From: an uncultured Rhodobacteraceae bacterium
GTDB lineage: Bacteria; Pseudomonadota; Alphaproteobacteria; Rhodobacterales; Rhodobacteraceae
Direction of reading: 5' to 3'
Length of the DNA: 64,000 nt
NCBI GenBank assembly: GCA_947497065.1
Contig: CANMEQ010000001.1
Location: 198,208-262,207 of the forward strand
Shown: positions 44,840-55,237 of the stretch, one piece after another
How the letters are laid out: each line of letters begins with the position of its first letter
Numbering within the stretch: the stretch's first letter is position 1
The notes under the pieces: generated by a model
Told to the model about the DNA's origin: nothing
Databases searched by the model: none
Seen by the model: only the letters and a program-made list of their open reading frames with translations
Program-made: the position numbers and the translations under genes

Positions 44840-47800
44840 ATGTCAGATCGTGATAGAAACGACTGTGATCATTTGGACGGATACGTTGAGGGTGATGATG
44901 GTGCGAACACCATCGATTCTTCTTACACTGGGGACCGAGACGGAGATCGCATTGATGCGAACGACGCAATTCTACCAGGCGAGCAATCCAATGATGATAT
45001 CGTCTTGGCCGGTGGCGGTGACGACATCGTAAAGTCCGGAAGCGGCGACGATGAAGTTTACGGTGGTGACGATAACGACATGATCTTCGCAGCATCTGGT
45101 GATGACGTTGTTTACGGCGGTTCTGGCGATGACAAAGTCGAAGCAAGTTCTGGCGAAGATGTTGTGTTTGGCGGCGACGGCGATGATGACATCTGGGCCG
45201 GCAAAGATAACGACACTGTTTCCGCGGGCGCAGGCAATGACACAGTTGTTGGTGGCGACGGCGAAGACTTGATTGCTGGCGGGTCCGGCAATGACACGAT
45301 CGATGCTGGCAGCGAGAACGACGAAGTCTATGGCGGCGGCGGTGCTGACTCTATTGAGGGTGGTACGGGCAACGACACGCTGATCGGTGGCAACACTGAG
45401 TTTGACGGCACGCTTGATTTTGACGACCTGTCCACTGGCGAATTGGTCGATGGTCAGTTCGTTGCAAACGGTGTGACGATCACGTCGTCTGATCCTGAGC
45501 ACCCTGTGATGGTGTTTGACACGAACAACCCAACTGGTGGCGACAACGATCTGGCGACTAACAACCTGAACAACGTTCTGATCCTGTCCGAAGACCGCGA
45601 TTCTTCTGACCCGGATGATAACGCGTCTGGTGGTACATTTAACATCGTGTTCGATGGGCCTGCGACAGTGACATCACTGACGATTTTGGATGCCGATCAC
45701 GGTGCATGGGTGAAATACTACGACGTTAACGGCAACCTGCTGCAGCAGATTGACGTGCACACGGCCAACAATGGCCAAGAAGTGATCAGCACAAACCTGA
45801 CAAACGTTGGGTCTATCGAAGTGATCCTCGGTGCATCTGGTGCGATCGACAACCTGACATATTCTATCGACGCTGATGACCTGGATGGGAACGACACCAT
45901 CGATGGTGAAGAGGGCGACGATTACATCGAAGGCAATGCCGGCAACGACAGCCTTGATGGCGGCGAAGGCAACGATGAGATCTTCGGCGGCACAGGCGAT
46001 GACCGTATCTTCGGCAACGACGGTAACGACACGCAGTTTGGCGGCGAAGGCAACGATGTTCTTGGCGGCGCTGATTTCGGCGACGATACGTATTTTGGTG
46101 GCGCTGGCGACGATATGGTCGAAGCGTCTTTCGGCGATGACCTGATCTTTGGTGGTGAAGGCAACGACGACCTGTGGGCGTCTTCCGACAACGATGAAGT
46201 CTTCGGCGGTGACGGCGATGACAACGTTTATGGTGGTCAGGGGACTGACACTGTATCTGGCGACGACGGCAACGACACATTGTCTGGCGGTTCTGGCGCG
46301 GACACTGTGTTTGGTGGTGCTGGCGACGACGTCATTGACGGTGACCTGCTGTACAAAGATGACAACGGGGCTGCTGGCAACGATCAGTTGTTTGGTGGCG
46401 ACGATGCCGATACGATCATTGCGAACGCAGGTGACACCGTGGACGGTGGCGCTGGCGGCAATGACCACGATATTCTTGATCTGACAGGCGAAGGCCCGTT
46501 CTTCTTGGCCGGTCCTGATGGCACAGGCAGCCCAGTTGCAGACAGCAACGGCAATGGTCTCGACGGGACGGTTATTTTTGTTGACGAAGATGGTGAGCCA
46601 ACGGGCGAAACACTGTCCTTCACCGAGATCGAGCAGATCATCGGCGACGAAGTGAACCGTGGCCCAGAAGCGGGTAACGACACTGCGTCAACCGACGAAG
46701 ATACTCCTGTCACGATCAGCGTTTTGGACAACGACAGCGACCCAGACGGCGATACGCTGACAATCACTGAAGCGTCTGTTTCTGCCGATCAGGGCACAGT
46801 TGAAATCGTCAACGGTGAGCTGGTGTTTACGCCTGCTGAAAACTTCAACGGCGAAGCAACAATCACATACACTGTTTCCGACGGGAACGGCGGCGAAGAC
46901 ACAGCGACAGTTACTGTTGATGTGGCACCTGTGAACGATGCACCTGATGCGGTTGATGACGCTGATACAACAGATGAAGACACACCTATCACTGTTGATC
47001 TGCTGGCAAATGACACAGATGTTGACGGCGATGACCTGACTGTTGTTTCCGCGAGTGTTCCTGCGTCGCAGGGTAGCTTGGTTGATAATGGCGACGGGAC
47101 TGTCACCTTTACACCAGCTCCAAACTTCAACGGTGAAGCGACAATCACGTACACCATCGAAGACGAAGATGGCCTGCAGGACACAGCGACACATGTCATC
47201 ACAGTTGAACCTGTGAATGACGATCCGATCGCATGCCCAGACCACTATTTCGTCAACGAAGACGAAACGACTGGCGATCTGGACGGCAATGTCATCACGA
47301 ACCCAAGCGACAATGGCGCGGGTCTGGACATCGATCCGGACGGTGACACGCTGACAGTTGTGGCCATTGATGGCGACGATACAGCTGTGGGCACGGTTGT
47401 GACCGGGTCCAATGGCGGTGAGTTTGTTCTGAACGCTGATGGATCTTTCGACTTCTCTGCGAACGGTGATTTCGAAGAGCTGGGCGTTGGTGAAACAGCT
47501 GACACGCAGATCACATACACTGTATCTGACGGGAACGGCGGCGAAGCGACAACAACGCTGACCATCACAATCAACGGTCAGAACGACGGCCCGGTTGCGA
47601 CAGACAATGATTACGTCGAAAGTGCGGACGATTCTGCGACAGATATCGACGGAAACATCCTGCGCGATGACACCGGCGATGGCGCTGATTTCGATGTGGA
47701 CGGTGATTTGATCCGCGTTGTGTCCATCACCAATGGCACTGACACCGATGCGCCGAATGATCCGTTCGGGAACACCGGCTCTCCTGCGACTGTTGCAGGT

Positions 47801-50800
47801 GATAACGGCGGCATCATCACGATCTACAACGGTGGGAACGTACAGTTCGATCCGAATGGTGAGTTCGATGATCTGGCCGAGGGTGAAACAGCAACGACAT
47901 CTGTGACTTACACCATTGAAGACGAAAATGGTGCGCAAGATACGGCTGTTGTGACATTCACAGTGACCGGTACAAACGACGCGCCAGTGGCCGTTTTGGA
48001 CACCGACACAACGGACGAAGACACAGCCATCACGCTCGACAATGTTCTGGGCAACGATGAAGACATCGATGGTGATACGCTGACTGTATCCGAAGTGAAC
48101 GGCGACCCAGCAAACGTTGGCGAACCGATCGCAGGTGACAACGGTGGTCTGATCACGATCAACGAAGATGGTACTGCGTCCTTCGATCCAAACGGTGAGT
48201 TCGAAGCGCTCGGCGATGGTGAAACGGCTGAGACAGAAGTGACTTACACAGTCACTGACCCAAGCGGTGCAACAAGCACAACAACGGTTACGGTCACTGT
48301 AACCGGTGTGAATGATGCGCCAAATGCGGTCGATAGCTCTTATGTTGTTGCGCAAGATGAAGCGGCTGGTGATGTGGATGCGAATGCACTCACAGATGAC
48401 ACTGGCGAAGGCGTGGACAGCGATCCTGAGGGCGACGACCTGACAGTTGTGGCCGTTGAGGGTGACACTGGAAACGTTGGCGGTGTTGTGGCTGGCGACA
48501 ATGGTGGCTTGTTCACAATCAATGCTGACGGGTCTGTCGACTTTGATGCGAATGACGAGTTCGATGGCCTAGGCGAGGGCGAAACAGCCACGACCACGGT
48601 GTCTTACACCATCGCTGACGAAGACGGTCTGGAAGACACGGCGACTGTGACGTTCACTGTGACAGGGACAAACGACGGTCCTGTGGCTGTTGAAGACACA
48701 GACGAGACCGATCAGGATACGGCGATTGTTCTGGACAATGTTCTGGGCAACGACAGCGACCCTGATGGCGATACGCTGACAGTGGCGTCTGTTGATGGCG
48801 ATGCGGCGAATGTTGGTACACCTATCGCAGGTGACAACGGTGGTCTGATCACGATCAACGCAGACGGCACAGCCTCCTTCGATCCGAACGGCGACTTTGA
48901 CGATCTGGGCACAGGTGACACCGAAGAAACAGCGGTTACCTACACCATCACAGACGGCAACGGCGGCACTGACACAACGACTGTGACGGTCACTGTGACA
49001 GGCACGAACGACGCGCCTGAGGCGACAAACAGCTCTTACGTTGTGGCGCAGGACGAAGCCTTTGGTGACGAAGACGCGAATGCGATCACAGACGACACAG
49101 GCGACGGTGTTGACAGCGATGTTGACGGCGATCCGCTGACAGTTGCGGCTGTTGACGGTGCTGCGGCGAACGTTGGTCAGCCGGTGGCTGGTGACAACGG
49201 TGGTCTGTTCACAATTGCGGAAGACGGCACGGTCGACTTCTCTGCGAACGGTGAGTTTGATGATCTGGGTGAGGGCGAAACAGCCTCCACAACAGTGACT
49301 TACACCATCACCGATCCAGAAGGTGGCACCGACACAGCGACTGTTACCTTTACTGTGACAGGTACGAACGACGGCCCAGTGGCTGTTGAAGACACTGATG
49401 CGACCGATCAGGATACTGCGATTGTTCTGGACAATGTTCTGGGCAACGACAGCGACCCTGATGGCGATACGCTGACAGTGGCGTCTGTTGATGGCGATGC
49501 GGCGAATGTTGGTACACCTATCGCAGGTGACAACGGTGGTCTGATCACGATCAACGCAGACGGCACAGCCTCCTTCGATCCGAACGGCGACTTTGACGAT
49601 CTGGGCACAGGTGACACCGAAGAAACAGCGGTTACCTACACGATCACAGACGGCAACGGCGGCACTGACACAACGACTGTGACGGTCACTGTGACAGGCA
49701 CGAACGACGCGCCTGAGGCGACAAACAGCTCTTACGTTGTGGCGCAGGACGAAGCCTTTGGTGATGTGGACGCGAATGCGATCACAGACGACACAGGCGA
49801 CGGTGTCGACAGCGATGTTGACGGCGATCCGCTGACAGTTGCGGCTGTTGACGGTGCTGCGGCGAACGTTGGTCAGCCGGTGGCTGGCGACAACGGTGGT
49901 CTGTTCACAATTGCAGAAGACGGCACGGTCGACTTCTCTGCGAACGGTGAGTTTGATGATCTGGGTGAGGGCGAAACAGCCTCCACAACAGTGACTTACA
50001 CAATCACCGATCCAGAAGGTGGCACCGACACGGCGACTGTGACCTTCACTGTGACTGGCACAAACGACGGCCCAGTGGCTGTTGAAGATACCTTCACAAC
50101 GGATGAAGACACAGTGTCTGAGCTTGGCAACGTTCTGGACAACGACAGCGACCCAGACAGCGATCCGCTGACTGTTGCTGAAGTGAACGGCGACCCTGCG
50201 AATGTTGGTCAACCGGTTGCTGGTTCTGAGGGTGGCTTGGTCACCATCAACCCAGACGGCACGATTAGCTTTGACCCGAATGGTGAGTTCGACGAACTTT
50301 CCCCAGGTGAAAGCGTTGAGACGACTGTTACGTACACTGTAACTGACCCATCCGGTGCTGAGGCGACTGAAACTGTGACCATCACAGTGAATGGCGTGAA
50401 CGATGGCCCAGAAGCGACAGACAACGCCTATGTTGTGTCGTTGACTGAAACAGCTGGCGACGTGGACGGAAACGTTATCACTGAAGACACTGGCGACGGT
50501 GTTGATAGTGATCCGGAAGACGACGATCTGACTGTTGTTGCTGTGGACGGCGATGCTGCGAATGTTGGCAATGTTGTTGCTGGCGACAACGGCGGGACGT
50601 TCACAATCAATGACGACGGTACAGTCGACTTTGATGCGGGCGACGACTTTGACGATCTTGGTCTTGGCGAAACGCGCGACACGTCTGTCACGTACACAAT
50701 CGCTGATGAAAACGGTGCAACGGATACGGCGACAGCCACATTCACAGTCACTGGCATCAACGACGGTACAGTGCAGGGCACAGCCGGCAACGATGTGATC

Positions 50801-53782
50801 AATCCAGACATCCCATATGTGGATGCCGACGGTGATATTGTTGACGCTGGCGACGGCATCCTGCCGGGTGACGAAGACACAGACAATGATGTGATCGAAG
50901 GCTTCGGCGGCGATGACAGCATTGATGCAGGTGCTGGCGATGACGTGGTGTTTGGTGGTGCGGATGACGACACGATCGATGGCAACATCGGCGATGACGA
51001 GTTGTTCGGTGGCCAAGGCGATGATGACATCGAAGGCGGCGAAGGTGATGATGTGGTTGACGGCGGTGCCGGTGACGATGTTCTGAACGGCGGCGACGGT
51101 GATGACACTGTGGTTGGCGGCGCAGGCAACGACACCATTGATGGCAACGACGGTGACGATGAACTGCGTGGCGGTTCTGGCGACGATGTTATTAATGGGT
51201 CTGAGGGCGAAGACACATTGTTTGGTGGCACTGACGCCGACGGTATTGACCTTGGCGGCGATGACGTCCTGTTTGGCGGTGCCGACGATGACACTGTCAT
51301 CGGTGGCGCTGGCGAAGACATTGTATCTGGCGACGAAGGCAACGATGAGCTTCATGGCGGTCTTGGCGATGACACCTTGTTGGGTGGCGACGGCAACGAC
51401 GTGATCGAAGATGTCGAAGGCAATGACAGCGTTGAAGGCGGCGACGGTAACGATATTATCAACGTTGGTTCTACGCAGGGTGATGAAAACCCTGATGTTG
51501 GTTACCCTGAGCAGCCATCTGCGACGGTCCCGGACCTTGTGTTCCCTGGCTATGACGCGGACGAAGATCCAAACGATGACAAAGACTTTGTCGACGGTGG
51601 TGCGGGTGATGATATCATCAACACAGGCGACGACGATGACACCATCATCGGTGGGTCCGGTAACGACACAATCAACGCAGGCTTCGACGATGATACCGTC
51701 GATGGCGGCACCGGTGATGACTTTATCGAAGGTGGCGAAGGCAACGATACGGTTGAAGGCGGTGACGGCGACGACACTATCTTCGGTGGGATCGATGACC
51801 CATTGGCTGACGCGGTAAGCTTCCCTGATGATGAGCCTGACGCGCTTGGGTTCCAGGATCTTGTGCCTGAAAACAACGGTGATGTGCTGTTTGGCGGTGC
51901 TGGCAACGATACGATCTTTGGCCAAGACGACGACGACAGCCTGTTTGGTGGCGACGGCGACGATGTTCTTGACGGTGGTATCGACGACGACATGATCCAA
52001 GGCGGCGACGGCAACGATGTTGTTATTGGTGGTCAAGGCGATGACAGCCTGACCGGCAACGACGGCAACGACACTGTTGTCGGTGGTGACGGCGCGGATA
52101 TCGTACGTGGCGGTACTGGCGACGACGATCTGACCGGTGACGATGGCATGGACATGCTGTTCGGTGGTGCTGGAAACGACACCATTGATGGCGGTGACGA
52201 CGACGATAAGATCGAAGGTGGATCTGGCGATGATACGATCATCGGTGGCGCCGGTAACGACGATCTTTGGGGCGCATCTGGTGATGACTCTGTCGACGGT
52301 GGCACGGGTGATGACGTTATCAACACAGCCGAAGGCAACGATGTTGTCGAAGGTGGTGACGGCGATGACGTTATCGACACGGCCAACGACGAAACACCTG
52401 AAATTGTAGTGCTACCTGATGGGATTTTGCTGACAGGTGAAAACCTGCCAGATGTTGGTTATCCAGGTGCTTATGAAGCGGATGCCGATCCGTTTGATGA
52501 CCTCGACACAGTCTTTGGCGGAGCTGGCAACGACAGCATCACCACAGGCGATGACGATGACACCATCTTTGGTGGCACCGGTGACGATAATATCGACGCT
52601 GGCATCGACGATGACTTTGTTGAAGGTGGCGAAGGCAACGACACGATCCTTGGGTCCGAAGGTAACGACGAAATCTACGGTGAAGACGGTGACGACGTTA
52701 TCTATGGTGGCCTAGCACCTGGTGATGGTGATTTCGCAGACCTGCCAAACGATTTGGATGGTGATGGCGACAGCAACGATCCGGGTGAAGACCTTGTCAC
52801 CGACAACAACAACGACACGTTGTTCGGCGGCGCGGGTAACGACTTCATCACAGGTAACGACGACGATGACACATTGTACGGCGGTACAGGGAATGACGTT
52901 CTAGATGGCGGCATCGATGATGACACGATCTACGGCGATGAGGGTGAAGACACGATCATTGGTGGTCAGGGCACGGACGAATTGTTCGGCGGCTTGGGCT
53001 CCGACACATTCCTTGGCGGTGACGGCGGTGATGTGGTTGTTGGTGGCGAAGACCCCGATGATACCGATGTTGATGTTCTGGATCTGACTGGATCTGGCGT
53101 TGATTTCATCACTTACGTTGATGGTGACCCAGAGGCAGGTGAAGTGACCTTCCTTGACGGCTCCACCATGACCTTCTCTGAGATCGAGAATGTGATCCCG
53201 TGCTTTACGCCGGGCACCACAATCGCGACACCGAAGGGGGAGCGTTTGGTTGAAGAACTGCGCGAAGGTGATCGGATCATCACACGGGACAACGGTATCC
53301 AAGAAATCCGTTGGGTTGGCCGCAAAGAGATGTCTGGCAAGGCGCTGGTCGCCAATTCGCATCTCAAGCCGATCCTGATCCGTGCGGGTGCATTGGGCAA
53401 CGGTCTGCCTGAGCGCGATATGCTCGTGTCTCCGAACCACCGTTGTTTGGTCGCCTCCGAGAAGACACAGCTCTACTTTGAAGAGCGTGAAGTTCTCGCA
53501 GCGGCGAAACACCTGGTCGGGTCCGAGGGTATTCATGCGGTTGATGTGATGGGCACGTCCTACATCCACTTCATGTTCGACCGCCACGAAGTGGTTCTGT
53601 CGAACGGCGCATGGACGGAAAGCTTCCAGCCAGGTGATTACAGCCTGAAAGGGATCGGGAATGCACAGCGCAACGAAATCTTTGAGCTGTTCCCAGAGCT
53701 ACAGGAACGTCAGGGGCTGGAAGGCTACCAGTCAGCCCGTCGCGCCCTGAAGAAGCACGAAGCCAAGTTGCTGATCAAGTAA
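44840..53782 (+). CDS. Giant (2980 aa) acidic RTX / Ig-like-repeat protein with C-terminal Hint (BIL) domain; probable surface adhesin
   Basis: Dozens of GGxGxDxL/I nonapeptides; 12 N-D-x-P-initiated Ig-like repeats; C-terminal CFTPGT...SPNHR...YIHFMFDRHE...NGAWTESF. AGGA SD; no N-terminal signal peptide. Confidence 0.92.
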   Translation: MSDRDRNDCDHLDGYVEGDDGANTIDSSYTGDRDGDRIDANDAILPGEQSNDDIVLAGGGDDIVKSGSGDDEVYGGDDNDMIFAASGDDVVYGGSGDDKVEASSGEDVVFGGDGDDDIWAGKDNDTVSAGAGNDTVVGGDGEDLIAGGSGNDTIDAGSENDEVYGGGGADSIEGGTGNDTLIGGNTEFDGTLDFDDLSTGELVDGQFVANGVTITSSDPEHPVMVFDTNNPTGGDNDLATNNLNNVLILSEDRDSSDPDDNASGGTFNIVFDGPATVTSLTILDADHGAWVKYYDVNGNLLQQIDVHTANNGQEVISTNLTNVGSIEVILGASGAIDNLTYSIDADDLDGNDTIDGEEGDDYIEGNAGNDSLDGGEGNDEIFGGTGDDRIFGNDGNDTQFGGEGNDVLGGADFGDDTYFGGAGDDMVEASFGDDLIFGGEGNDDLWASSDNDEVFGGDGDDNVYGGQGTDTVSGDDGNDTLSGGSGADTVFGGAGDDVIDGDLLYKDDNGAAGNDQLFGGDDADTIIANAGDTVDGGAGGNDHDILDLTGEGPFFLAGPDGTGSPVADSNGNGLDGTVIFVDEDGEPTGETLSFTEIEQIIGDEVNRGPEAGNDTASTDEDTPVTISVLDNDSDPDGDTLTITEASVSADQGTVEIVNGELVFTPAENFNGEATITYTVSDGNGGEDTATVTVDVAPVNDAPDAVDDADTTDEDTPITVDLLANDTDVDGDDLTVVSASVPASQGSLVDNGDGTVTFTPAPNFNGEATITYTIEDEDGLQDTATHVITVEPVNDDPIACPDHYFVNEDETTGDLDGNVITNPSDNGAGLDIDPDGDTLTVVAIDGDDTAVGTVVTGSNGGEFVLNADGSFDFSANGDFEELGVGETADTQITYTVSDGNGGEATTTLTITINGQNDGPVATDNDYVESADDSATDIDGNILRDDTGDGADFDVDGDLIRVVSITNGTDTDAPNDPFGNTGSPATVAGDNGGIITIYNGGNVQFDPNGEFDDLAEGETATTSVTYTIEDENGAQDTAVVTFTVTGTNDAPVAVLDTDTTDEDTAITLDNVLGNDEDIDGDTLTVSEVNGDPANVGEPIAGDNGGLITINEDGTASFDPNGEFEALGDGETAETEVTYTVTDPSGATSTTTVTVTVTGVNDAPNAVDSSYVVAQDEAAGDVDANALTDDTGEGVDSDPEGDDLTVVAVEGDTGNVGGVVAGDNGGLFTINADGSVDFDANDEFDGLGEGETATTTVSYTIADEDGLEDTATVTFTVTGTNDGPVAVEDTDETDQDTAIVLDNVLGNDSDPDGDTLTVASVDGDAANVGTPIAGDNGGLITINADGTASFDPNGDFDDLGTGDTEETAVTYTITDGNGGTDTTTVTVTVTGTNDAPEATNSSYVVAQDEAFGDEDANAITDDTGDGVDSDVDGDPLTVAAVDGAAANVGQPVAGDNGGLFTIAEDGTVDFSANGEFDDLGEGETASTTVTYTITDPEGGTDTATVTFTVTGTNDGPVAVEDTDATDQDTAIVLDNVLGNDSDPDGDTLTVASVDGDAANVGTPIAGDNGGLITINADGTASFDPNGDFDDLGTGDTEETAVTYTITDGNGGTDTTTVTVTVTGTNDAPEATNSSYVVAQDEAFGDVDANAITDDTGDGVDSDVDGDPLTVAAVDGAAANVGQPVAGDNGGLFTIAEDGTVDFSANGEFDDLGEGETASTTVTYTITDPEGGTDTATVTFTVTGTNDGPVAVEDTFTTDEDTVSELGNVLDNDSDPDSDPLTVAEVNGDPANVGQPVAGSEGGLVTINPDGTISFDPNGEFDELSPGESVETTVTYTVTDPSGAEATETVTITVNGVNDGPEATDNAYVVSLTETAGDVDGNVITEDTGDGVDSDPEDDDLTVVAVDGDAANVGNVVAGDNGGTFTINDDGTVDFDAGDDFDDLGLGETRDTSVTYTIADENGATDTATATFTVTGINDGTVQGTAGNDVINPDIPYVDADGDIVDAGDGILPGDEDTDNDVIEGFGGDDSIDAGAGDDVVFGGADDDTIDGNIGDDELFGGQGDDDIEGGEGDDVVDGGAGDDVLNGGDGDDTVVGGAGNDTIDGNDGDDELRGGSGDDVINGSEGEDTLFGGTDADGIDLGGDDVLFGGADDDTVIGGAGEDIVSGDEGNDELHGGLGDDTLLGGDGNDVIEDVEGNDSVEGGDGNDIINVGSTQGDENPDVGYPEQPSATVPDLVFPGYDADEDPNDDKDFVDGGAGDDIINTGDDDDTIIGGSGNDTINAGFDDDTVDGGTGDDFIEGGEGNDTVEGGDGDDTIFGGIDDPLADAVSFPDDEPDALGFQDLVPENNGDVLFGGAGNDTIFGQDDDDSLFGGDGDDVLDGGIDDDMIQGGDGNDVVIGGQGDDSLTGNDGNDTVVGGDGADIVRGGTGDDDLTGDDGMDMLFGGAGNDTIDGGDDDDKIEGGSGDDTIIGGAGNDDLWGASGDDSVDGGTGDDVINTAEGNDVVEGGDGDDVIDTANDETPEIVVLPDGILLTGENLPDVGYPGAYEADADPFDDLDTVFGGAGNDSITTGDDDDTIFGGTGDDNIDAGIDDDFVEGGEGNDTILGSEGNDEIYGEDGDDVIYGGLAPGDGDFADLPNDLDGDGDSNDPGEDLVTDNNNDTLFGGAGNDFITGNDDDDTLYGGTGNDVLDGGIDDDTIYGDEGEDTIIGGQGTDELFGGLGSDTFLGGDGGDVVVGGEDPDDTDVDVLDLTGSGVDFITYVDGDPEAGEVTFLDGSTMTFSEIENVIPCFTPGTTIATPKGERLVEELREGDRIITRDNGIQEIRWVGRKEMSGKALVANSHLKPILIRAGALGNGLPERDMLVSPNHRCLVASEKTQLYFEEREVLAAAKHLVGSEGIHAVDVMGTSYIHFMFDRHEVVLSNGAWTESFQPGDYSLKGIGNAQRNEIFELFPELQERQGLEGYQSARRALKKHEAKLLIK
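46655..50758 (+). repeat. Array of 12 Ig/cadherin-like repeats (about 95-131 aa each)
   Basis: Each unit begins N(D/R)(A/G/D)P.A and ends YT(V/I).D..G..D/S..T...TV.G/P. Confidence 0.9.
48671..50062 (+). repeat. Near-identical tandem duplication, 2 x 696 bp (48671-49366 and 49367-50062)
   Basis: Long exact DNA matches at a constant 696-bp offset. The ORF track also shows identical antisense peptides at 48712 and 49408. Confidence 0.93.
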
Positions 53783-53790
53783 ACGACTAT

Positions 53791-53866
53791 GAACCAGCCC
53801 GAGCGAATCGGGCTGGTTTCACGAAAAAGAAGCCCGGACGCGAAACAGCGTTCGGGCATTTTTTAT
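53791..53866 (+). terminator. Tandem hairpins / Rho-independent terminator after the giant gene
   Basis: AACCAGCCCGA/TCGGGCTGGTT hairpin (53792-53818), then GCCCGGACGC/GCGTTCGGGC hairpin (53832-53857) followed by ATTTTTTAT. Confidence 0.82.
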
Positions 53867-54070
53867 GCAGTTTTATTCATATTTTTTGAAATTGTTGCGG
53901 GTTTCGATTTAATGGCGCGCGACGCCGGCTTTTGTTAATCGCCCTTTCTATTTTAACGTGCGTGCGCGTTTTTTCCCCGCTAATGAAAGAAAGACTTCAT
54001 TTACAAATACCAAAGTATGGTCCGGCTTGGGCCTGTTTTAAGTTAGCTAACGCACACGAGGATGCACCCC

Positions 54071-55237
54071 ATGGCTACGATTACCGGAACTTCAAATTCA
54101 GATACGCTGGTCGGTGGTACTGATGATGATGTGATCAGTGGCTTGAACGGGCAAGACAGCCTGTCCGGTGGTGACGGCAATGACACGCTGTATGGTGGCG
54201 AAGGGAACGACACGGTTGAAGGGGGTGACGGGGACGACTCTATCGAGGGTGGGTCCGGTCAGGATATCCTCTATGGCGGTGACGGGGATGATACGATTTC
54301 CGACGATGAGGGAACGCAAAACCTCGGCCAAGACACGGTGTACGGCGGTGCGGGCAACGATACGATTTCGCTGAGCGGGAATGGCGATACTGCCTATGGC
54401 GGTACAGGAGACGATCTGTTCAACATCCTGACGTTTTCCAACTTTAATGGTCTGACGATTGATGGCGATGAAGACAGTGATGGCAATGACAACGATGTCA
54501 TCAATTTTGCGGCCTTGTATCAAAAATTTCCTGATCTTCAGATTATTTACGAAAGCCAAAGTGCCGATGGTGAAGACGGGCGTATCCTGATCAAGACGGC
54601 CCCGAACGGGCGAGAGCTTGGTCGTTTGAACTATTCGAACATTGAAAACATCATTTGTTTTACGCCGGGCACCTTGATTGCCACACCGATGGGCGAAGTG
54701 CCGGTTGAAAGTTTGCGCGAAGGGGACAAGGTGTTCACCCGCGATAATGGCATTCAGGAATTGGCTTGGATTGGCCGCCGTAACTTGAGCCGGTTTGACC
54801 TTGAAGCCACGCCGGAATTCCAACCTGTTTTGGTTAAGGCGGGATCTTTGGGCGCTGGGTTGCCGGAGCGGGATTTGCTGCTGTCGCCAAACCACCGGTT
54901 GTTGATGACGGGCGAGCGGGCATCGCTTTATTTTGAAGAGACAGAAGTACTGTCTGCGGCGAAACACTTGGTCGATATGGATGGTGTGGCGCAGGTTCAG
55001 ACGCAATCGGTGAGCTATATTCACCTGCTGTTTGAACGCCACGAGGTGATTTTGTCCAACGGTACGTGGACGGAAACGTTCCAGCCGAGCGATCATTCGT
55101 TGAAGGGCGTTTTGGATGAGCAGCGCCGTGAAATCCTTTCGTTGTTTCCAGAGCTTTCTACGCTTGGGAGCAAAGACGGATGGCCTGCGGCACGCAAAGT
55201 GCTGAAGAGCCATGAGGCCAAACTGCTTACGGTTTAA
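54071..55237 (+). CDS. Short RTX-repeat protein with C-terminal Hint (BIL) domain
   Basis: MATITGTSNSDTLVGG.., about 10 GGxGxD repeats, CFTPGT at 54656, SPNHR, YIHLLFERHE, NGTWTETF; GAGGA SD. Confidence 0.92.
   Translation: MATITGTSNSDTLVGGTDDDVISGLNGQDSLSGGDGNDTLYGGEGNDTVEGGDGDDSIEGGSGQDILYGGDGDDTISDDEGTQNLGQDTVYGGAGNDTISLSGNGDTAYGGTGDDLFNILTFSNFNGLTIDGDEDSDGNDNDVINFAALYQKFPDLQIIYESQSADGEDGRILIKTAPNGRELGRLNYSNIENIICFTPGTLIATPMGEVPVESLREGDKVFTRDNGIQELAWIGRRNLSRFDLEATPEFQPVLVKAGSLGAGLPERDLLLSPNHRLLMTGERASLYFEETEVLSAAKHLVDMDGVAQVQTQSVSYIHLLFERHEVILSNGTWTETFQPSDHSLKGVLDEQRREILSLFPELSTLGSKDGWPAARKVLKSHEAKLLTV

What the first reader, a model, noticed from the sequence alone, without database searches (positions are those of the whole stretch)
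53201..55237. Two adjacent genes end in a colinear 193-aa Hint plus basic-tail module; cleavage may unmask the secretion signal
Seen: both modules start at CFTPGT (53201 and 54656), are exactly 193 aa, align without gaps (about 113/193 identical by hand count), lack a terminal His-Asn, and end in a conserved tail (QR.EI..LFPEL...AR..LK.HEAKLL) that is basic or neutral, unlike the very acidic passengers. Established: T1SS signals occupy the extreme C-terminus just after RTX repeats, and B-type BIL domains cleave at their N-terminal Cys. Inference: N-cleavage would expose ...F(S/T)EIENVIP or ...YSNIENII as the new C-terminus, so the Hint may gate export. Alternatively, the thioester could ligate the passenger to a nucleophile (as Hedgehog does with cholesterol) for anchoring.
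Basis: partly seen in the sequence, partly recalled or inferred. Interest (0 to 1): 0.68.

Follow-up and report, generated by a model that had tools for sequence, protein, structure and literature searches.

The report
Self-cleaving Hint cassette ending two RTX proteins
Two neighbouring calcium-binding surface-type proteins of a marine Rhodobacterales bacterium each end in the same 193-residue intein-like self-cutting module; this module belongs to a very large, already catalogued family, and nobody has tested whether the cut comes before or after export.

Summary
Gene A (44840-53782, 2980 aa) and gene B (54062-55237, 391 aa) both end in a 193-aa module that starts at CFTPGT. The two modules share 113/193 residues with no gaps.

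Residues 1-146 are Pfam Hint_2 (E about 1e-57) with Cys1 and an SPNH block B but no terminal His-Asn, which matches the published description of B-type bacterial intein-like (BIL) domains. The last 47 residues form a conserved two-block helical tail that Pfam does not model.

The module is not special to this pair. The genome holds 13 Hint_2 loci, and 18,427 protein clusters match. In the best 150 clusters the module is always the last 191-197 residues.

Hint_2 tracks type I secretion: 25/25 Hint-positive genomes have a T1SS membrane-fusion gene, against 0/3 Hint-negative genomes of the same family.

The "cleavage unmasks the signal" idea is neither shown nor excluded.
- For: the tail does not look like a T1SS signal, and the pre-Cys end is acidic then hydrophobic.
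- Against: the pre-Cys cap is a generic RTX block end that also occurs internally in gene A, and a position-specific test found no likeness to this genome's T1SS ends.

Verdict: new members of a known kind, modest interest.

The parts
44840..53782 (+). Gene A: 2980-aa giant RTX / Ig-like repeat protein ending in the Hint cassette. No N-terminal signal peptide is evident.
   Evidence: ORF. Pfam: Big_9 and Cadherin_4 x12, HemolysinCabind x31, Hint_2 at aa 2787-2933.
46469..46657 (+). Internal twin of the pre-Hint cap in gene A (...DILDLTG...LSFTEIEQII|G), followed by Gly and the Ig repeats instead of a Hint domain.
   Evidence: Cap HMM hit at aa 544-606, E 2e-6. Translation.
53072..53200 (+). 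Gene A pre-Hint RTX cap, DVLDLTG...TMTFSEIENVIP. Its last residue is the -1 position of the scissile bond.
   Evidence: Translation. Cap HMM E 1.6e-16. 25/25 small proteins with this cap carry Hint_2.
53201..53638 (+). Gene A Hint core (module residues 1-146): Cys1 at 53201-53203, block B SPNH at 53429-53440, WTESF at 53612-53626.
   Evidence: Pfam Hint_2 at 197 bits. AF2 model, with Foldseek matches to inteins, BIL domains and Hedgehog. Coordinates checked.
53639..53779 (+). Gene A tail (module residues 147-193): a two-block helical C-terminal extension not covered by any Pfam model.
53832..53867 (+). Terminator-like GC-rich hairpin plus T-run between the two genes, which suggests separate transcription units.
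   Evidence: Sequence.
54062..55237 (+). Gene B: 391-aa RTX protein ending in the Hint cassette.
   Evidence: ORF. Pfam HemolysinCabind plus Hint_2 at aa 198-343. AF2 full-length model.
54596..54655 (+). Gene B pre-Hint cap end, ...GRLNYSNIENII. It forms the last beta-strands of the confidently modelled RTX domain.
54656..55093 (+). Gene B Hint core: Cys1 at 54656-54658, block B SPNH at 54884-54895, WTETF at 55067-55081.
55094..55234 (+). Gene B tail (module residues 147-193).

Best explanation
Both genes encode type-I-secretion-type RTX passengers fused to a portable 193-residue C-terminal autoprocessing cassette. The cassette is a B-type bacterial intein-like (Pfam Hint_2) domain plus a family-specific two-helix tail. 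Inferred chemistry: the folded Hint domain shifts the (Pro/Ile)-Cys1 peptide bond onto the Cys1 thiol (N-S acyl shift, assisted by the block-B His of SPNH). The resulting thioester is then resolved by water or a thiol. This detaches the passenger, which ends ...EIENVIP or ...NIENII, from a 21-kDa Hint+tail fragment. No splicing is possible because there is no block G His-Asn and no downstream extein. My weak lean on the order of events is that cleavage happens in the cytoplasm, before or at hand-over to the T1SS. The conserved tail would then serve as a docking or structural element rather than as the signal. Shown here: domain identity, intact catalytic residues, fixed extreme-C-terminal position, family size, and co-occurrence with T1SS. 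Inferred: cleavage itself (by homology to tested Rhodobacter BILs), its timing, and every role proposed for the tail.
For: Identity and catalytic residues: (invariant C1, S77-P78-x-H80, E140). The Hint fold is shown. Published activity: type B BILs lack block G and cleave at their ends without splicing (PMC4031507, PMC7765530). From my own memory, Dassa et al. 2004 tested Rhodobacter sphaeroides and R. capsulatus domains in E. coli. An R. capsulatus protein is 65% identical to module B. Cassette behaviour: the module is always the last 191-197 residues in 269 relatives and in the best 150 of 18,427 cluster representatives. It is fused to RTX and non-RTX passengers, none of which shows an evident Sec signal by eye. 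Link to T1SS: there are three ABC+MFP loci in the genome. Among sampled genomes, 25/25 Hint_2-positive ones have a T1SS MFP above cut-off, against 0/3 Hint_2-negative genomes of the same family. For cleavage before export: T1SS moves unfolded chains C-terminus first, is stalled by folded domains, and reads a signal at the extreme C-terminus (PMC4648471). The tail has background composition (KHPMWC 0.15-0.20), whereas true T1SS-type ends in this genome score 0.02-0.10 and the pre-Cys segment 0.07. 235/269 pre-Cys ends are acidic then hydrophobic, against 1/269 tail ends and a null of about 3%.
Against: There is no direct evidence of cleavage or secretion for these proteins. The pre-Cys cap is a generic RTX block-end motif that also occurs internally followed by Gly. 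Its composition may therefore only reflect the RTX passenger. The cap HMM does not detect the C-termini of non-Hint RTX proteins. A PSSM built from nine T1SS-type ends ranks pre-Cys ends no better than internal positions or tails. No Hint-less protein ending in this cap was found, so the cap is never seen acting alone as a C-terminus. Pre-export cleavage leaves the strict conservation of the tail unexplained, and no benefit of gating is evident. The eight or so other RTX proteins of the genome manage with plain ...DFLLF-type ends.
Confidence: 0.4

Rival explanations
1. Export first, cut afterwards. The tail, or the whole cassette, is the C-terminal recognition element. It leaves the cell first through the T1SS in unfolded form. 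The Hint then folds outside together with the Ca2+-driven RTX fold and releases the passenger from the cassette, acting as a self-removing export tag or a timed-release anchor.
For: The cassette is the only element shared by very different passengers that lack any other export signal. It always sits at the extreme C-terminus with fixed length. The tail is as conserved as the Hint core: entropy is 0.98-1.11 in its two blocks against 1.02 for the core. The tail HMM hits only Hint-protein C-termini. The cap is never found as a natural C-terminus. Hedgehog processing likewise happens after translocation (established knowledge).
Against: The tail does not resemble T1SS signals in composition, and it carries 1-3 basic residues in its last 8, unlike all nine T1SS-type ends of this genome. 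T1SS signals are usually poorly conserved, whereas this tail is strongly conserved. A Hint domain that folds without Ca2+ would risk stalling the channel (PMC4648471). In other lineages Hint_2 is followed by a domain of about 185 aa instead of this tail. A Cys-less, His-less orthogroup keeps a modified tail.
Confidence: 0.25
2. Hedgehog-like transfer. The Cys1 thioester is resolved not by water but by a specific nucleophile (a lipid, glycan, peptidoglycan or protein amine or hydroxyl). This covalently anchors or cross-links the passenger by its C-terminus. The tail would act as the adduct-recognition region.
For: The architecture parallels Hog proteins: secreted passenger, then Cys-Phe, then Hint, then a short C-terminal region (SRR/ARR concept, PMC2362128). 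Foldseek matches Hedgehog 1at0. The region after Hint varies in kind between lineages, a 47-aa tail here and about 185 aa elsewhere, much as ARRs vary. Passengers are adhesin- or lectin-like: Ig and cadherin repeats, with weak H-type lectin and DUF642 hints. FrpC 'clip-and-link' shows that RTX proteins can self-cleave and ligate (PMC3034196).
Against: The tail is hydrophilic (GRAVY -0.85 and -0.39) with low hydrophobic moment (0.19-0.37), so it is not sterol- or membrane-region-like. Its last 20 residues are modelled with low confidence. From my own memory of Dassa et al. 2004, Rhodobacter B-type BILs cleave in E. coli without any special acceptor. No candidate acceptor or partner gene is conserved next to these genes.
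Confidence: 0.15
3. The cassette has no role in export. As Pietrokovski's group proposed for BILs, it mainly generates post-translational variability (alternative cleaved, uncleaved or trans-ligated forms) in variable surface proteins. Alternatively, the released Hint+tail fragment has a function of its own.
For: Reviews summarise this proposal (PMC7765530). Multiple Hint genes sit in conserved tandem arrays. Cys-less Hint-like paralogues are conserved across at least 11 genera, so the fold has non-catalytic uses.
Against: The strict extreme-C-terminal position, the fixed length, and the perfect co-occurrence with T1SS in the sampled genomes point to a link with C-terminal export.
Confidence: 0.12

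Closest known systems
B-type bacterial intein-like (BIL) domains (Amitai et al. 2003; Dassa et al. 2004), which I take to be equivalent to Pfam Hint_2 PF13403
   Same: N-terminal Cys, block-B (S/T)xxH, Hint fold, no block G His-Asn and no +1 nucleophile. Found in variable, secreted-type (often RTX) proteins of Rhodobacter-like Alphaproteobacteria. Cleavage without splicing is expected.
   Different: Nothing essential; these are further members. The 47-residue conserved tail after the Pfam model is not annotated in Pfam. I could not check how the original papers treat it because they are not held in the library.
Hedgehog C-terminal autoprocessing (Hog) domain: Hint plus sterol/adduct recognition region
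   Same: A secreted passenger is followed by Cys-Phe, a Hint domain and a short C-terminal region at the very end of the protein. The thioester chemistry is the same, and the model matches 1at0 structurally.
   Different: The organism is a bacterium. The -1 residue is Pro or Ile rather than Gly. The tail is hydrophilic and basic, not a hydrophobic sterol-binding region. No acceptor is known.
Canonical inteins
   Same: Hint fold, Cys1 and block B. Foldseek best hits are Prp8 and DnaB inteins.
   Different: There is no C-terminal Asn and no C-extein. The domain is not inserted in a conserved host protein, so it cannot splice.
FrpC-type self-processing module of RTX proteins ('clip and link', PMC3034196)
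   Same: An RTX/T1SS protein that cuts itself and can generate a reactive new C-terminus.
   Different: FrpC uses unrelated chemistry (Ca2+-dependent Asp-Pro cleavage through an anhydride). Its module sits internally, and it is known to act after secretion.
Classical T1SS substrates with an uncleaved C-terminal signal (serralysins, lipases, HlyA)
   Same: RTX repeats followed by a capping structure. T1SS genes are present in the genome. The passengers are acidic and cysteine-poor.
   Different: In classical substrates the extreme C-terminus is the signal. Here it is a conserved Hint+tail cassette whose composition is not signal-like. Other RTX proteins of the same genome end in ...DFLLF-type motifs.

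Membership tests
B-type BIL / Pfam Hint_2 | Match to the Hint_2 profile above the curated cut-off | tested here: met
   197.2 and 192.1 bits against a cut-off of 28.4, covering profile positions 2-147.
B-type BIL / Pfam Hint_2 | N-terminal nucleophile (Cys1) and block-B (S/T)xxH | tested here: met
   CFTPGT and SPNH are present in both modules. C1, S77, P78 and H80 are invariant in 51 relatives.
B-type BIL / Pfam Hint_2 | No intein block G (terminal His-Asn) and no +1 nucleophile | tested here: met
   The core ends WTESF/WTETF with an invariant Glu, and the proteins end KLLIK/KLLTV. Criterion taken from PMC4031507.
B-type BIL / Pfam Hint_2 | Hint (Hedgehog/intein) fold | tested here: met
   The AF2 core has pLDDT about 80-95. 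Foldseek probability is 1.0 to inteins, Tetrahymena BIL2, C. thermocellum BIL 2lwy and Hedgehog 1at0, with TM-score (target) 0.6-0.68.
B-type BIL / Pfam Hint_2 | Autocatalytic cleavage at the domain ends | not testable with these tools
   Inferred from intact catalytic residues and from published assays on Rhodobacter homologues (reviews PMC4031507 and PMC7765530).
Canonical intein | C-terminal Asn plus a Cys/Ser/Thr +1 extein residue, with insertion in a conserved host protein | tested here: not met
   There is no His-Asn and no C-extein. The domain is terminal in variable RTX proteins.
Hedgehog Hog domain | Hydrophobic sterol/adduct recognition region after the Hint domain | tested here: not met
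   Tail GRAVY is -0.85 and -0.39, hydrophobic moment is 0.19-0.37, and pI is 8.4-9.2. The architecture alone is parallel.
Hedgehog Hog domain | Gly-Cys-Phe cleavage site | tested here: not met
   Cys-Phe is present, but the -1 residue is Pro (171/242) or Ile (58/242) in RTX-type relatives.
T1SS (RTX) substrate | RTX nonapeptide repeats, and a T1SS ABC/MFP in the genome | tested here: met
   HemolysinCabind is found in both genes. There are three ABC+MFP loci elsewhere in the genome and none in the window.
T1SS (RTX) substrate | Signal-like extreme C-terminus (rich in LDAVTSIF, poor in KHPMWC; criterion recalled from the T1SS literature) | tested here: not met
   The last 60 aa of the tails score 0.40-0.55 rich and 0.15-0.20 poor, which equals background. 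Genuine T1SS-type ends in this genome are 0.02-0.10 poor. The pre-Cys segments do meet the criterion, at 0.07 poor.
T1SS (RTX) substrate | Demonstrated T1SS-dependent secretion | not testable with these tools
   Only co-occurrence is available: 25/25 Hint_2-positive genomes have a T1SS MFP, against 0/3 Hint_2-negative genomes of the same family.

The most novel reading that the evidence does not exclude
The cassette is a bacterial counterpart of Hedgehog autoprocessing. The Cys1 thioester would hand the passenger's C-terminus to a specific non-water acceptor on the cell envelope or on a target surface, and the conserved tail would act as the adduct-recognition region. Type-I-secreted adhesins would then be anchored covalently by their C-termini.
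Probability: 0.12. Interest if true: 0.85.

Novelty: new member of a known kind. Interest (0 to 1): 0.3.

Why it matters
B-type BIL / Hint_2 cassettes are among the most expanded protein modules of marine Rhodobacteraceae. This genome has 13 copies, relatives have up to 20, and the domain is reported as enriched in fast-responding 'bloomer' genomes (PMC12487129). Their biological role has still never been established. If cleavage licenses type I export, it would be the first T1SS signal unmasked by autoproteolysis. If the thioester is transferred to an acceptor, it would be a bacterial analogue of Hedgehog lipidation and a new way of anchoring adhesins.

This window adds no new kind of object. 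It does offer a convenient test pair: a small 391-aa substrate sitting next to a giant one. The work here also yields three concrete constraints.
- The tail is not signal-like in composition.
- The cap is a generic RTX block end.
- Hint_2 co-occurs strictly with T1SS in the sampled genomes.

Tried and rejected
1. NCBIfam and Pfam scans of the pre-Cys segments, the tail and control RTX C-termini for any T1SS C-terminal-target model. Nothing hit, not even the controls, so the test was uninformative.

2. Cap HMM (45 residues before Cys1, 240 sequences) against all ORFs of the genome. It gave no hit to the C-termini of non-Hint RTX proteins and hit only Hint proteins and internal cap twins.

3. 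By eye...AGEVTFLDGSTMTFSEIENVIP seemed to align end-to-end with ...ASNVIFLNDVAASDLTAQDFIF. A position-specific matrix from nine T1SS-type ends did not support this. Pre-Cys ends had a median at the 76th percentile, tails at the 91st, and 44% of internal positions scored as well. I rejected the alignment as evidence.

4. Search for Hint-less homologues of the caps, which would act as natural 'delta-Hint' variants. For the gene A cap, 25/25 hits carry Hint_2. For the gene B cap there were no hits.

5. The idea that the tail co-varies strictly with catalytic residues. In this genome 8/8 Cys1 copies have a canonical tail, and 5 Cys-less copies have a diverged tail or none. This was weakened because the Cys-less, His-less orthogroup at C3:101282-101962 is conserved in at least 11 genera and keeps a modified tail, LFPH...DFG..PR.

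6. A full-length AF2 model of gene B, to see whether the tail gains confidence next to the passenger. It does not: the last 20 aa have pLDDT about 40 and pTM is 0.56.

7. A profile search of PDB sequences found no solved B-type BIL. The only hit was a weak match to 2lwy over the first 28 residues.

8. Five literature searches for Hint_2 plus exoproteome or T1SS found no experimental study of this cassette's role. The original BIL papers are not held.

9. One class-level genome search was wasted on too strict an E-value.

10. Adjacency of Hint_2 genes to exporters in another family (G048). One gene lies next to a C39-ABC plus HlyD pair and the other next to an MFS efflux set. This is not conclusive.

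Full report
**What is there**

Two co-oriented genes lie on the + strand between housekeeping genes. Upstream are gyrA, ornithine cyclodeaminase, arginase and DsbB. Downstream are a MobA-like NTP transferase, Ysc84, glyoxalase, hemB and mfd.

- Gene A (44840-53782) encodes 2980 aa with 12 Big_9/Cadherin-like repeats and 31 RTX stretches.
- Gene B (54062-55237) encodes 391 aa with RTX repeats.
- A strong terminator-like hairpin (53832-53857 plus a T-run) separates them.
- Best-matching relatives are named Octadecabacter and other Rhodobacterales.

**Check of the observation**

Both proteins end in a 193-residue module beginning CFTPGT. The modules align without gaps at 113/193 identity, E 2e-89. 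At the DNA level identity is 61%, third codon positions are 47% identical, and no identical run exceeds 15 nt. They are therefore old paralogues, not a recent duplication or conversion.

Residues 1-146 match Pfam Hint_2 at about 195 bits. The last 47 residues match no Pfam or NCBIfam model. Neither module has a terminal His-Asn.

The tails are basic (pI 9.2 and 8.4). The passengers carry net charges of -687 and -35, with 2 and 0 cysteines.

**What it is**

The module has Cys1, an SPNH block B and an invariant Glu where inteins have their terminal Asn. All three are conserved in 51 aligned relatives.

An AlphaFold model (pLDDT 77.8) gives a confident beta-rich core. Foldseek matches it to inteins, the Tetrahymena BIL2 domain, the Clostridium thermocellum BIL domain and the Hedgehog autoprocessing domain, with probability 1.0 and target TM-scores of 0.6-0.68.

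These features fit the published definition of B-type bacterial intein-like domains. Those domains lack block G and cleave at their ends without splicing (PMC4031507, PMC7765530). From memory, the domains that Dassa et al. 2004 tested came from Rhodobacter sphaeroides and R. capsulatus. An R. capsulatus protein is 65% identical to module B. RTX proteins with Hedgehog/intein homology were already noted in the 2010 RTX review (PMC3034196).

**How common it is**

- The genome has 13 Hint_2 loci.
- A word-indexed search found 2434 relatives.
- An exhaustive phmmer search found 18,427 cluster representatives, 2872 of them below E 1e-30.
- In all of the best 150, and in 269 sequences inspected, the module is the last 191-197 residues of the protein, most often exactly 193.
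- Within the bacterium's family, 23 of 26 sampled genera have 1-20 copies, often in tandem.
- Across 121 sampled alphaproteobacterial families only 3 genomes have it.
- A close relative keeps the same locus with three Hint genes in a row: the giant, a 363-aa non-RTX protein, and the orthologue of gene B. The same downstream genes follow.

The pair is therefore an ordinary instance of a known, conserved arrangement.

**The tail**

The tail has two conserved blocks, QR.Ei.eLFPeL and aARr.LKkHEA.lL. Their column entropy (1.11 and 0.98) equals that of the Hint core (1.02). It contains invariant residues E159, F164, P165, L167, A179, R180 and E187.

It is predicted as four or five short helices, with moderate confidence for the first block and low confidence for the last 20 residues. 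This holds both in isolation and in the full-length gene B model.

It is hydrophilic with a low hydrophobic moment. A tail HMM finds only the C-termini of Hint proteins in this genome.

In this genome all eight Cys1-bearing copies keep the canonical tail. The five Cys-less copies have diverged tails or none. However, one Cys-less and His-less orthogroup is conserved in at least 11 genera and keeps a modified tail. The tail is thus an integral extension of this Hint subfamily rather than a strictly catalytic accessory. In another alphaproteobacterial family, Hint_2 is instead followed by about 185 residues.

**The pre-Cys end**

In 242 RTX-type relatives the consensus is F(-9) x (E/N) I E N (V/I)(I/V)(P/I). 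In non-RTX relatives it is typically ...ADF(I/V)P.

The RTX-type cap is a generic RTX block-end element.
- An HMM of the 45 residues before Cys1 hits an internal site of gene A (aa 544-606, ...LSFTEIEQII followed by Gly and the Ig array).
- It also hits sites inside another Hint protein.
- It does not hit the C-termini of the genome's non-Hint RTX proteins.

In the full-length model the cap's last strand ends exactly at -1 and the junction is flexible.

**Link to type I secretion**

No T1SS genes lie in the window. The genome has a PrtD-type ABC+MFP pair and two LapB-like loci, each next to a giant substrate.

Seven non-Hint RTX proteins end in an acidic residue followed by F/L-rich hydrophobics (...DFLLF...DTFLF...DFIF). 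The two T1SS-adjacent giants end ...EEDINVTI and ...DDDVTVFEI.

Across 26 genera of the family, the 23 with Hint_2 are exactly the 23 with a T1SS membrane-fusion protein above the curated cut-off. Two further Hint-positive genomes also have one. This supports dependence on T1SS. The three negative genomes may be related to each other, and RTX proteins as a whole would show the same pattern.

**Does cleavage unmask a signal?**

Evidence for:
- T1SS exports unfolded chains C-terminus first, stalls on folded domains, and reads a signal at the extreme C-terminus (PMC4648471).
- The tail's composition equals background (KHPMWC fraction 0.15-0.20). This genome's T1SS-type ends score 0.02-0.10 and the pre-Cys segments 0.07.
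- 235/269 pre-Cys ends are 'acidic then at least two hydrophobics', against 1/269 tail ends and about 3% at control positions.

Evidence against or neutral:
- The cap is a generic RTX element that also occurs internally.
- A position-specific matrix from nine T1SS-type ends ranks pre-Cys ends no higher than internal positions or tails.
- No protein ending naturally in this cap was found.
- The hypothesis gives the conserved tail no role.

My estimate is about 0.35 for pre-export cleavage in itself, 0.25 for export first and cleavage afterwards, about 0.15 for transfer to an acceptor, and the remainder for roles unrelated to export.

**Comparison with earlier notes of this scan (leads only)**

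- Several earlier reports describe the same family as ordinary (e1-4246346, e1-4125300).
- One reports conserved tandem trios (e1-3197171), which agrees.
- One note on this genome reports the internal cap twin (e1-5259758), which one search confirms independently.
- One reports a serralysin whose export tag is capped by a Hint domain (e1-5266381). I tested the analogous idea here, with mixed results.

**Verdict**

The domain assignment and the expected self-cleavage are well supported. The proposed gating of export is plausible but unsupported by any specific sequence evidence. The finding consists of new members of a known kind, and its main value is as a compact experimental test case.

Noticed in passing
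window 46469-46657: Gene A contains an internal copy of the pre-Hint cap (...DILDLTG...LSFTEIEQII) that is followed by Gly and the Ig-repeat array instead of Cys and a Hint domain. This suggests the giant protein was built by joining Hint-protein-like passenger units.
   Followed up: partly
own genome C3:101282-101962 (L027) and L028-L042: A 270-300-aa Hint_2-like protein lacks both Cys1 (A-x-A/G-R-G in place of CFTPG) and the block-B His. It is conserved at 35-55% identity in at least 11 genera and keeps a modified tail (LFPH...DFG..PR). It is a conserved, presumably non-catalytic Hint paralogue of unknown role.
   Followed up: partly
own genome, 13 loci (L001-L013): Only 3 of the 13 Hint_2 proteins have RTX repeats. 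The other passengers are small, acidic, beta-rich domains without an evident signal peptide, with weak H-type lectin and DUF642/DUF3244 hints. Five copies lack Cys1.
   Followed up: partly
own genome C8:1-13317 and C1:19097-27745: Two LapA/LapB-like loci each encode a giant substrate next to ABC, MFP and outer-membrane genes. One substrate is at least 2689 aa and ends ...DDDVTVFEI. The other is 1258 aa and ends ...EEDINVTI.
   Followed up: no
26 genera of the same family (G000-G025), plus G048 and G107: Hint_2 presence and a T1SS membrane-fusion protein above cut-off coincide perfectly: 25/25 against 0/3. Hint_2 was found in only 3 of 121 sampled alphaproteobacterial families.
   Followed up: yes
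L026 (relative GCA_947493255.1); also G010:C15, G025:C19, G015:C20, G005:C59, G022:C11: Tandem pairs or trios of Hint_2 genes recur in several genera. The closest relative has an extra 363-aa non-RTX Hint gene between the giant and the gene B orthologue; in this genome that gene type lies elsewhere.
   Followed up: partly
L052 6107-12191 (G048, another family): A 584-aa Hint_2 protein with about 185 residues after the Hint domain lies divergently next to a HlyD-family gene and a C39-peptidase ABC exporter. An IS240-type transposase is adjacent.
   Followed up: partly
position -1 of the cleavage site, family-wide: Pro occupies -1 in 171/242 RTX-type and 24/27 non-RTX relatives. From my own knowledge, Pro at -1 is unfavourable for N-terminal cleavage in engineered inteins, so this subfamily seems adapted to an unusual scissile-bond context.
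   Followed up: no
window 53790-53867: Two consecutive GC-rich hairpins follow gene A, the second with a T-run. The 279-bp spacer is AT-rich, so gene B probably has its own promoter.
   Followed up: no
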